From the NCBI GenBank assembly GCA_027326225.1, contig DAHWEW010000009.1, positions 1 through 15,843 of the forward strand: a DNA stretch of 15,843 bases, written 5' to 3'. The notes beneath the pieces were generated by a model. It worked only from the letters and a program-made list of their open reading frames with translations. It was not told the DNA's origin and did no database searches. Positions 14,481 through 14,645 of this stretch are shown here, one piece after another. Every line of letters starts with the position of its first letter. The stretch's first letter is position 1. The stretch is from Legionellaceae bacterium (GTDB taxonomy: Bacteria; Pseudomonadota; Gammaproteobacteria; Legionellales; Legionellaceae). Both the position numbers and the translations under genes were made by a program.

Positions 14481-14585
14481 CAACCGAACCGTGACCGTTA
14501 CCAACCGAACTGCGAGCGTTACCAACCGAACTGCGAGCGTTACCAACCGAACTGCGAGCGTTACCAACCGAACCGTGACCGTTAG
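14481..14585. repeat. Five direct 21-bp tandem repeats (minisatellite-like)
   Basis: Units occupy 14481-14501, 14502-14522, 14523-14543, 14544-14564 and 14565-14585. Units 1 and 5 read caaccgaaccgtgaccgtta(c/g); units 2-4 read caaccgaactgcgagcgttac. They start 8 nt after the phosphoesterase stop. The units are markedly more GC-rich than the surrounding sequence. Confidence 0.9.
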
Positions 14586-14645
14586 GGAGCGGAAATTTTA
14601 GCTACGATTCACATACAGTCCGCTCCCTAACGGTCACGGTTCGGT
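14567..14645. other. Perfect 26-bp inverted repeat with a 27-nt loop (candidate bidirectional terminator, protein-binding site or recombination site)
   Basis: accgaaccgtgaccgttagggagcgg (14567-14592) is the exact reverse complement of ccgctccctaacggtcacggttcggt (14620-14645). The left arm is direct-repeat unit 5, so the arm sequence occurs twice direct and once inverted. Only a weak GUUUGUG tract follows. Confidence 0.7.

What the first reader, a model, noticed from the sequence alone, without database searches (positions are those of the whole stretch)
14481..14645. Composite element of 5 x 21-bp direct repeats fused to a perfect 26-bp inverted repeat, with arm and repeat sharing one sequence
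The sequence aaccgaaccgtgaccgtta occurs twice in direct orientation (units 1 and 5) and once inverted (right arm). These copies bracket three copies of a variant unit. The last direct unit doubles as the left arm of a 26-bp perfect hairpin with a 27-nt loop. A 26-bp perfect palindrome is far longer than a typical intrinsic terminator stem. Its GC-richness in an AT-rich genome adds to the impression that it is selected or recently acquired. Possible roles are a VNTR locus, an iteron-like protein-binding array controlling the downstream small membrane-protein gene, a recombination site, or the footprint of a small non-autonomous mobile element.
Basis: seen in the sequence. Interest (0 to 1): 0.6.

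Follow-up and report, generated by a model that had tools for sequence, protein, structure and literature searches.

The report
REP-type mobile repeat cluster, Legionella-like
The repeats and long hairpin are copies of a short palindromic "REP-like" DNA unit that a small single-strand-DNA (Y1/HUH) transposase spreads through Legionella, Acidobacteria and Planctomycetes genomes, so this is a known kind of selfish repeat lodged behind an effector-like gene and not a new regulatory device.

Summary
There are five 21-bp tandem units at 14481-14585. The last one begins a perfect 27-bp inverted repeat (14567-14593 / 14619-14645) with a 25-nt loop.

The shared sequence is one repeat family. Its core is CCGARCCGYGACCGTNAGGGAGCGG: a CnGA "foot" followed by a weak hairpin whose pairs covary. 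I found 468 copies in fetched loci from Acidobacteria, Planctomycetota and Legionellales. They occur as singlets, inverted doublets and tandem runs.

Inverted copies flank genes for a 165-180-aa Y1/HUH transposase with the NHVH, W[TA] and YV[VI]xEQ motifs. This is "class 3 TnpA-Y1" of Quentin et al. 2018 (PMC6006769). The arrangement holds in L. pneumophila, L. bononiensis and L. waltersii.

One Legionella-like contig (L263) has an intact gene flanked on both sides by about five 3'-truncated units plus one full unit. That is the architecture seen in the window.

The window element is therefore a gene-less REP doublet (REPIN-like) with four truncated REP units. A transposase encoded elsewhere probably mobilised it. 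It may also act as a 3' stem-loop for the LegS1-like mRNA.

A second assembly of the same strain has 3 units instead of 5. That is either a real VNTR or an assembly collapse.

Verdict: new member of a known kind, of modest interest.

The parts
14481..14501 (+). Unit 1: 3'-truncated REP-like unit, type A (CAACCGAACCGTGACCGTTAC). It has the foot CCGA, the 5' arm and the loop, but lacks the 3' arm GGGAGCGG.
   Evidence: nhmmer with the family profile matches profile positions 2-20 only.
14502..14564 (+). Units 2-4: three identical 3'-truncated REP-like units, type B (CAACCGAACTGCGAGCGTTAC). Two of the three differences from type A (C at core position 9, G at core position 12) are common alternative states in the family. 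Only one type B unit is present in assembly L120.
14565..14594 (+). Full REP-like unit on the + strand (tandem unit 5 plus its 3' arm). The 25-nt core CCGAACCGTGACCGTTAGGGAGCGG is at 14568-14592, the foot CCGA at 14568-14571 and the unit's own hairpin CCGT-GA-CC-GTTA-GG-GA-GCGG at 14573-14592. It forms the left arm of the 27-bp inverted repeat (14567-14593).
   Evidence: E = 5e-9 to the family profile.
14594..14618 (.). 25-nt spacer or loop between the two inverted REP units (AAATTTTAGCTACGATTCACATACAG region). No similarity found to anything.
   Evidence: A spacer of 16-30 nt is typical of +/- doublets of this family.
14618..14646 (-). Full REP-like unit on the - strand. The core is at 14620-14644 and the foot CCGA at 14644-14641. 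It forms the right arm of the 27-bp inverted repeat (14619-14645).
   Evidence: E = 4.5e-9.
13321..14472 (+). Context: upstream gene, a LegS1-like metallophosphoesterase (sphingomyelinase-like Dot/Icm effector family). Its conserved C-terminus ends 9 nt before the array, so the element lies in its 3' flank and has not disrupted the ORF.
14792..15073 (+). Context: downstream 93-aa small membrane-protein gene. It is a real family, with about 200 full-length homologues of 80-125 aa.

Best explanation
The element is a gene-less cluster of REP-like units belonging to the family associated with class 3 Y1/HUH transposases (TnpA-Y1 class 3, a RayT-like protein). One unit is about 28 nt: a CnGA foot (here CCGA) followed by a weak hairpin, CCGY-GA-CC-GTNA-GG-GA-GCGG. 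The window holds two full units in inverted (+/-) orientation 23-25 nt apart. Together they make the 27-bp hairpin, which is a REPIN-like doublet. Four units truncated just after the hairpin loop precede them. Shown: family membership, the hairpin covariation, the link between the family and the transposase in Legionella and other phyla, and the same 'truncated units + full unit' architecture at both ends of an intact transposase gene in a Legionella-like contig. Inferred: the cluster was deposited or copied as single-stranded DNA by a class 3 transposase encoded elsewhere in this genome, by analogy with IS200/IS605 and REP/RAYT systems. Inferred: the identical type B units arose by local tandem amplification (slippage), giving unstable copy number. 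Inferred: as a by-product the strong stem-loop may stabilise or end the LegS1-like transcript, as REPs do in E. coli.
For: 1. The family exists. The arm sequence recurs as ACCGAACCGCGACCGTTAGGGAGCGGAC in Acidobacteria, Planctomycetota and Legionellales loci. There are 214 copies in 96 of 119 loci and 468 copies overall.
2. Hairpin covariation is clear. 95.1% of cells pair against 87.6% when shuffled, and 23 double-change cells are seen against 3.5 expected (0 of 500 shuffles reach that). Slid controls pair at 32-46%.
3. The family occurs as singlets, inverted doublets and tandem runs.
4. A Y1_Tnp ORF is flanked by inverted units in L095, L248, L036 and L129, with a decayed gene in L147.
5. JGI names the homologues 'REP element-mobilizing transposase RayT'.
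6. Legionella has 178-aa members (L. pneumophila, L. bononiensis, L. waltersii, L. shakespearei) carrying NHVH, WT and YV[VI]xEQ. Their genes are flanked by inverted units.
7. [quoted passage not shown]
8. The exact T-variant core with the same 3' AAAT flanks a 178-aa gene in L261.
9. L263 has 5.8 copies of a 25-nt truncated-unit array ending in a full unit upstream of tnpA, with the mirror arrangement downstream.
10. Other runs of truncated units followed by a full unit occur in L038, L134, L205 and L043.
11. No Rfam family matches.
Against: No transposase gene lies in the 15.8-kb window, which is the whole contig. Only this one cluster of units is present in it. So the copy number and the presence of a cognate tnpA in the source genome are unknown. 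No target-site footprint or empty site could be shown, because the nearest available relatives share only about 57% protein identity. A single unit's hairpin is weak in the energy model (-3.4 kcal/mol, z about 0). Class 3 transposase activity has never been tested, as the authors of PMC6006769 say themselves. Termination or mRNA stabilisation here is inference only, and there is no U-tract.
Confidence: 0.85

Rival explanations
1. In-situ remnant: a complete class 3 element (array - unit - tnpA - unit - array, as in L263) once sat here. An internal deletion removed the gene and the right-hand array, leaving the two units 25 nt apart. The cluster did not arrive as a miniature doublet. This rival keeps the same family assignment and differs only in history.
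For: Internally deleted tnpA copies between + and - units exist in Legionella-like contigs (L147, L143, L205, L172). The +/- orientation in the window is the orientation found around tnpA. The left-side array is as in L263.
Against: The 25-nt spacer shows no similarity to tnpA or its flanks. Doublets with 16-30-nt spacers are a recurrent unit in many loci (L181, L196, L214), which suggests that doublets propagate as such. There is no right-hand array.
Confidence: 0.25
2. A locally evolved transcription terminator or attenuator, or a protein-binding (iteron or operator-like) array specific to the LegS1-like gene or the small membrane-protein gene, with no connection to mobile DNA.
For: The position is 9-170 nt after the stop codon of an expressed-looking gene and 146 nt before the next start codon. 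The stem is very stable. REPs are reported to stabilise mRNA and terminate transcription (background of PMC6006769).
Against: The unit is nearly identical to hundreds of copies next to unrelated genes in three phyla. There is no U-run, and the terminator scan does not call it. The orthologous gene pair in relatives has no such element. A secondary terminator role remains compatible with the main explanation.
Confidence: 0.05
3. A classical MITE moved by a DDE transposase, with terminal inverted repeats and a target-site duplication.
For: It has long perfect inverted arms. In some Legionella-like metagenome contigs the same unit lies inside 190-320-bp elements that have outer inverted ends (CACGGCGATTGCATT...) and 9-10-bp flanking duplications.
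Against: The window has no such outer ends. There are no direct repeats abutting the element. The only nearby direct repeat (14431-14447 / 14649-14665, 82%) is asymmetric, and its left copy lies in the conserved C-terminal coding sequence.
Confidence: 0.04
4. The five-unit array, or the difference between 5 and 3 units, is an assembly artefact, and the true locus has another copy number.
For: Short-read de Bruijn assemblies handle 21-bp periodic runs poorly. ENA contig L120 has 3 units with 0 mismatches elsewhere over 5,481 nt. The Logan contigs break inside the array.
Against: Hairpin and array are recovered in three assemblies. By my own k-mer reasoning, the break in the k=31 Logan contigs is expected only if at least 2 type B units are present, so the 3-unit form cannot be the only allele. 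The family assignment does not depend on the copy number.
Confidence: 0.3

Closest known systems
REP-like sequences flanking class 3 TnpA-Y1 genes (Quentin et al. 2018, BMC Genomics 19:475, PMC6006769)
   Same: The foot is CnGA (CCGA here), followed by a weak, atypical hairpin. Copy number is high in Acidobacteria and Planctomycetes genomes. Inverted copies flank a roughly 178-aa HUH-Y1 protein with NHVH, W[TA] and YV[VI]xEQ. Proteobacterial members exist, and the Legionella proteins fit the signature exactly.
   Different: The word Legionella does not occur in the paper's text or in its two supplementary files held as text. The text I read does not mention tandem arrays of 3'-truncated units next to a full unit (window, L263), though I could not see its figures. 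The window copy has no transposase gene nearby.
REP / BIME / REPIN elements with RAYT (TnpA-REP, class 2) of E. coli and Pseudomonas (PMC2817692, PMC3116915, PMC3337134)
   Same: Short extragenic imperfect palindromes with a conserved 5' tetranucleotide. They occur as singlets, inverted doublets that form hairpins (REPINs) and clusters. A Y1 transposase gene is flanked by the repeats (a REPtron).
   Different: The foot is CnGA, not GT[AG]G. The transposase is a different class: NCBIfam REP_Tyr_transpos scores only 18.5 bits against a cut-off of 80. The 25-nt core is nearly identical across phyla, whereas class 2 REPs are usually lineage-specific.
IS200/IS605 subterminal hairpins (IS608, ISDra2)
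   Same: Y1/HUH enzyme. The recognised sites are small hairpins with a 5' guide tetranucleotide. Single-stranded DNA is the presumed substrate.
   Different: Those hairpins occur once at each end of an insertion sequence. They are not dispersed in hundreds of gene-less copies or arranged in tandem half-unit arrays.
Subterminal repeat arrays of transposon ends (for example Tn7 TnsB sites, Mu att sites)
   Same: Several roughly 20-bp direct repeats lie just inside or next to an inverted terminal unit, as in the window and at both ends of L263. This comparison is from my own knowledge and was not tested here.
   Different: Those are double-strand binding sites of DDE transposases with 5-bp duplications. 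Nothing here shows protein binding to the truncated units.

Membership tests
Class 3 TnpA-Y1-associated REP-like elements | Unit has a 5' tetranucleotide foot CnGA followed by a (weak) hairpin | tested here: met
   CCGA at 14568-14571 and, on the minus strand, 14644-14641. The hairpin ((((..((....))..)))) is the MFE of the single unit and is supported by covariation across 72 distinct copies. The family definition comes from PMC6006769.
Class 3 TnpA-Y1-associated REP-like elements | Sequence match to units that flank class 3 tnpA genes | tested here: met
   The window core CCGAACCGTGACCGTTAGGGAGCGG differs by 1 of 25 from the family consensus. It is identical, including the 3' AAAT, to the units next to a 178-aa tnpA in L261. 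nhmmer gives E = 5e-9.
Class 3 TnpA-Y1-associated REP-like elements | Cognate class 3 Y1 transposase present in the same genome | not testable with these tools
   The window is the whole 15,843-bp contig and carries no Y1_Tnp gene. Related Legionella species do carry the gene.
Class 3 TnpA-Y1-associated REP-like elements | Many dispersed, mostly extragenic copies in the host genome | not testable with these tools
   There is only one cluster in the window. In other hosts the feature is met: 10 copies in 5.5 kb of L. waltersii and 5 around tnpA in L. pneumophila at 5 or fewer mismatches, or 14 and 6 at 7 or fewer. There are several copies per 8 kb in Bryobacterales.
REPIN (REP doublet forming a hairpin) | Two REP units in inverted orientation separated by a short spacer, folding as one hairpin | tested here: met
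   Arms of 27 nt are 100% complementary with a 25-nt loop and fold at -35.8 kcal/mol. In the family, +/- neighbours cluster at gaps of 16-30 nt.
REPIN (REP doublet forming a hairpin) | Evidence that the doublet is copied as a unit (same doublet at several sites) | not testable with these tools
   This needs the rest of the source genome.
Canonical REP/RAYT (class 2, GTAG type) | 5' GT[AG]G foot and a class 2 TnpA-REP | tested here: not met
   The foot is CCGA. The associated protein scores 18.5 bits against a cut-off of 80 for NF047646 REP_Tyr_transpos.
Intrinsic (Rho-independent) terminator | Short GC-rich stem, small loop, then a U-run | tested here: not met
   The scan does not call this site. 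The stem is 27 bp and the loop 25 nt, and it is followed by GAGUUUGUGC with no U-run.
VNTR / minisatellite | Copy number differs between strains or samples | tested here: inconclusive
   There are 5 units in the window and 3 in L120, with 0 mismatches in 5,481 nt of flank. The Logan contigs break inside the array. An assembly collapse cannot be excluded.
MITE (DDE type) | Terminal inverted repeats bounded by a target-site duplication | tested here: not met
   No direct repeat abuts either edge. The outer ends seen in related metagenome elements are absent.
Iterons | Direct repeats next to a replication initiator gene or origin, bound by that initiator | tested here: not met
   The window has no replication gene. 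The unit is a truncated REP found next to unrelated genes. Protein binding itself was not testable.

The most novel reading that the evidence does not exclude
In Legionellales, class 3 Y1-transposase elements may have a distinct end architecture that I did not find described in the paper text I read. It consists of tandem arrays of 3'-truncated half units (foot + 5' arm + loop) stacked outside a full unit. The arrays appear to be amplified independently at each end: in L263 the left array has period 25 and the right period 26, with different linkers. In the window there are 4 units with a locally amplified variant. If the arrays are functional, for example as extra transposase-loading sites or as alternative pairing partners for the opposite arm, and not slippage debris, this would be a new layer in how HUH transposases recognise their ends. 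Related contigs also carry the same unit and a decayed class 3 gene inside elements with outer inverted ends and 9-10-bp flanking duplications. To my knowledge Y1 transposition is not known to produce such duplications.
Probability: 0.2. Interest if true: 0.55.

Novelty: new member of a known kind. Interest (0 to 1): 0.3.

Why it matters
The result explains an odd-looking composite repeat as ordinary selfish or structural DNA, so it should not be annotated as a regulatory site, an origin or a CRISPR-like feature. It extends the little-studied class 3 Y1 transposase and REP-like system to Legionella, including L. pneumophila, where I found no mention of it in the papers searched. The roughly 25-nt unit is almost unchanged between Acidobacteria, Planctomycetota and Legionellales, which is unusual for REPs and suggests tight enzyme-substrate constraint or horizontal spread. 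The tandem half units give a concrete substrate set (full versus truncated units) for the first biochemical test of a class 3 enzyme. They also offer a possible strain-typing locus if the difference in copy number is real.

Tried and rejected
- Rfam: no hit at gathering thresholds on the window or on 18 related loci, apart from two tRNAs. At the permissive threshold only spurious microRNA-hairpin models matched. No known RNA family fits.
- A literature search for the literal sequence found nothing. 'RAYT + Legionella' returned only irrelevant papers.
- All-against-all clustering of ORFs in the 119 loci found no recurrent neighbouring gene family. The transposase link appeared only when I looked at ORFs lying between inverted units.
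- Cyanobacterial origin of the low-GC contigs, suspected from a GCGATCGC motif, is rejected. HIP1 is not enriched and the transposase homologues are from Legionella.
- The 17-nt direct repeat 14431/14649 as a target duplication is rejected, because its left copy encodes the conserved LegS1 C-terminus.
- A ToxI-like type III antitoxin array was considered. The downstream protein is a small membrane protein with no Pfam match, and the unit is a dispersed repeat.
- The closest relatives were looked up for an empty site. They share synteny (RNase HII - LegS1 - MFS) but are too distant (about 57% identity) for a base-level comparison.
- Look-ups meant to name the source organism returned no name.

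Full report

Yes. Tandem Repeats Finder reports a 21-bp period, 5.0 copies, at 14481-14584 (score 166). The repeat finder shows the same units and a perfect inverted repeat with 27-nt arms at 14567-14593 and 14619-14645, 25 nt apart.

Units 1 and 5 share ACCGAACCGTGACCGTTA exactly. Units 2-4 are identical to one another and differ from units 1 and 5 at three positions.

Six matches at 3 or fewer mismatches compare with 0.01 expected by chance. The hairpin folds at -35.8 kcal/mol as DNA, z = -11. The locus appears in three independent assemblies, so the hairpin is not an assembly artefact.

**2. Context**

The window is an entire 15,843-bp contig. Its genes are a POT transporter, PBP2, RodA, RNase HII, an SPFH protein and an MFS transporter.

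The ORF ending 9 nt before the array (13321-14472) belongs to the LegS1 / sphingomyelinase-like metallophosphoesterase family of Legionella. The best non-self hits are 57-59% identical, and named hits are Legionella species. The organism is therefore an uncultured Legionella-like bacterium.

The protein's C-terminus is conserved, so the element has not altered the ORF. The downstream 93-aa ORF is a genuine small membrane-protein family with about 200 full-length homologues.

**3. The unit is a widespread repeat family**

Most came from Bryobacterales and other Acidobacteria and from Planctomycetota. A few low-GC loci came from Legionellales and unclassified Proteobacteria.

Their common sequence is ACCGAACCGCGACCGTTAGGGAGCGGAC, which is the window's hairpin arm with one substitution. 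Allowing 6 mismatches or fewer gives 214 copies in 96 loci. They occur as singlets, as inverted neighbours (31 in -/+ orientation, 19 in +/-) and as tandem runs. The +/- neighbours mostly lie 16-30 nt apart, and the window's pair (23 nt by the same measure) is typical.

Within the unit, CCGC-GA-CC-GTNA-GG-GA-GCGG forms a small hairpin. On 72 distinct copies, 95% of cells pair against 88% when shuffled. There are 23 double-change cells against 3.5 expected (0 of 500 shuffles reach that). Sliding the partner drops pairing to 32-46%. The third loop base is free, and the two G.A juxtapositions are conserved.

No Rfam family matches. No gene family recurs next to the units.

**4. Link to a transposase**

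I looked at ORFs lying between inverted units. L095:5551-6114 matches Pfam Y1_Tnp at 26.4 bits against a cut-off of 23. It has an HVH motif and a STRYLW tyrosine. A + unit sits 40 nt upstream and two - units sit just downstream.

The same arrangement holds for homologues in L036, L129 and L248, and a decayed copy lies between units in the low-GC contig L147. Homologues are named 'REP element-mobilizing transposase RayT' by JGI.

Searching with the low-GC version retrieves 178-aa proteins from L. pneumophila, L. bononiensis, L. waltersii and L. shakespearei. One L. pneumophila sequence is listed in 99 blocks of the collection. All carry NHVH, WT and YV[VI]xEQ, except that the L. pneumophila representative P0296 reads YVVYGQ.

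Their genes are flanked by inverted units. L. pneumophila has three units on each side, L. bononiensis has one on each side, and L. waltersii has 14 in 5.5 kb.

**5. What is known**

Quentin et al. 2018 (PMC6006769) defined 'class 3' TnpA-Y1 proteins. They have a mean length of 178 aa and the motifs NHVH / W[TA] / YV[VI][AENY]EQ. They occur mainly in Planctomycetes, Acidobacteria and Proteobacteria.

[quoted passage not shown] The structures reach about 600 copies in Solibacter usitatus. [quoted passage not shown]

The window's unit has the CCGA foot, and the Legionella proteins fit the signature. The family is therefore already described. Legionella is not mentioned in that paper's text or in its two supplementary files held as text.

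**6. The composite architecture is also a family trait**

In the Legionella-like contig L263 (129.7 kb), an intact class 3 gene (5001-5543) is preceded by 5.8 copies of a 25-nt array of units truncated right after the loop (…CCGAGCCGCGACCGTTA + A-rich linker). The array ends in one full unit. The gene is followed by the mirror image: a full unit, then 3.7 or more copies of a 26-nt truncated unit.

The linkers differ between the two sides, so each array grew locally. L261 has three or more full units in tandem with a 29-nt period after its gene, and their core plus 3' AAAT is identical to the window's. Shorter runs of truncated units followed by a full unit occur in L038, L134, L205 and L043.

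The window (four truncated units + full unit, then an inverted full unit) is thus a miniature, gene-less version of a class 3 element end, or a REPIN-like doublet that acquired an array.

Two of the three substitutions in the type B units are common family alternatives. The three identical type B copies indicate recent local amplification.

**7. Copy number**

ENA contig L120 is identical to the window over 5,481 nt except for a 42-bp gap, which corresponds to one type B unit instead of three. The Logan k=31 contigs break inside the array. By my own reasoning this requires at least two type B units, so the 3-unit form is not the only one. Whether this is population variation or an assembly collapse cannot be decided here.

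**8. Mechanism**

Shown:
- the window units belong to the family;
- the unit's hairpin is under structural constraint;
- the family is linked to class 3 Y1 transposase genes in Legionella and in other phyla;
- the array architecture recurs at the ends of an intact element.

Inferred:
- By analogy with IS200/IS605 and TnpA-REP (background in PMC6006769), a class 3 enzyme encoded elsewhere recognises the foot plus hairpin on single-stranded DNA and copies or moves units or doublets.
- Arrays expand by slippage.
- The 27-bp stem probably also serves as a 3' barrier for the LegS1-like mRNA, as reported for REPs. It lacks a U-run and is not called as an intrinsic terminator.

**9. Rivals**

- A purely local terminator or operator is contradicted by the unit's distribution.
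- A DDE-type MITE is contradicted by the lack of flanking duplications and of the outer ends seen in related elements.
- An artefact is contradicted by three assemblies.
- Whether the cluster is an in-situ deletion remnant or arrived as a miniature remains open.
- Relatives with the same synteny have no unit at this position, but they are distant.

**10. Verdict**

This is a new member of a known kind.

Interest is modest (0.3). The cross-phylum constancy of the unit, its presence in Legionella and the half-unit arrays are the points worth a specialist's look.

Noticed in passing
L125:140-372, L136:2515-2759, L143:5030-5337, L205:2498-2818 (also L239, L243, L147, L172): Legionella-like metagenome contigs carry elements of 190-320 bp (L147 is longer). 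Their layout is an outer inverted end (CACGGCGATTGCATT...), a + unit, an internally deleted class 3 Y1 transposase gene, a - unit and the other outer end. In four cases they are bounded by 9-10-bp direct duplications, for example aggattttgc and gcaagatgc. To my knowledge Y1 transposases are not known to make target duplications, so either another transposase moves these or class 3 elements behave differently.
   Followed up: partly
L263:4747-5789: This looks like a full-length class 3 element: outer ends (GCGATTGCATTAAAA...), five truncated units, a full unit, tnpA and the mirror image. It lies next to a sequence that looks like a tRNA gene (not checked with a tRNA tool). No clear flanking duplication was seen here.
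   Followed up: partly
L255:1127-2330 and L256 (L. waltersii): A periodic array of about 283 bp, each period containing a unit and a repeated 77-aa ORF call, lies upstream of the class 3 gene. The number of periods differs between two assemblies of the species.
   Followed up: no
L050:1-380 and L119:1-483 (Legionellales bacterium SW_27; positions counted on the reverse strand of L119): A tandem array with a period of about 30 nt (cttcccggttcgtcctgatttccggaggca) directly abuts a unit. In L119 it is mirrored on the far side of a +/- unit pair 170 nt apart. This is a different array sequence with the same layout as the window.
   Followed up: no
window 4756-4956: A 27-bp (81-bp super-period) in-frame tandem repeat, 6.4 copies at 97% identity, lies inside the 1131-aa ORF 2002-5397. 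That ORF has no Pfam match. It may be a repeat-containing effector-like protein.
   Followed up: no
window 10257-13221: The SPFH-domain gene and a 355-aa ORF with no Pfam match lie between RNase HII and the LegS1-like gene. In the nearest relatives (L257, L259) RNase HII is directly followed by LegS1. The LegS1-MFS interval also varies: it is 0 bp in L257, holds a 438-aa gene in L259, and holds the REP cluster plus a 93-aa gene here. This is a variable region.
   Followed up: partly
L244-L247 (IMG/VR contigs): Four contigs classed as viral (GC 0.56-0.63) carry one or two copies of the unit. They could be prophage or host DNA, or phage carriage of the repeat.
   Followed up: no
window 15023-15073: The 93-aa ORF (+) and the convergent MFS transporter ORF (-) overlap by 51 nt at their 3' ends.
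   Followed up: no
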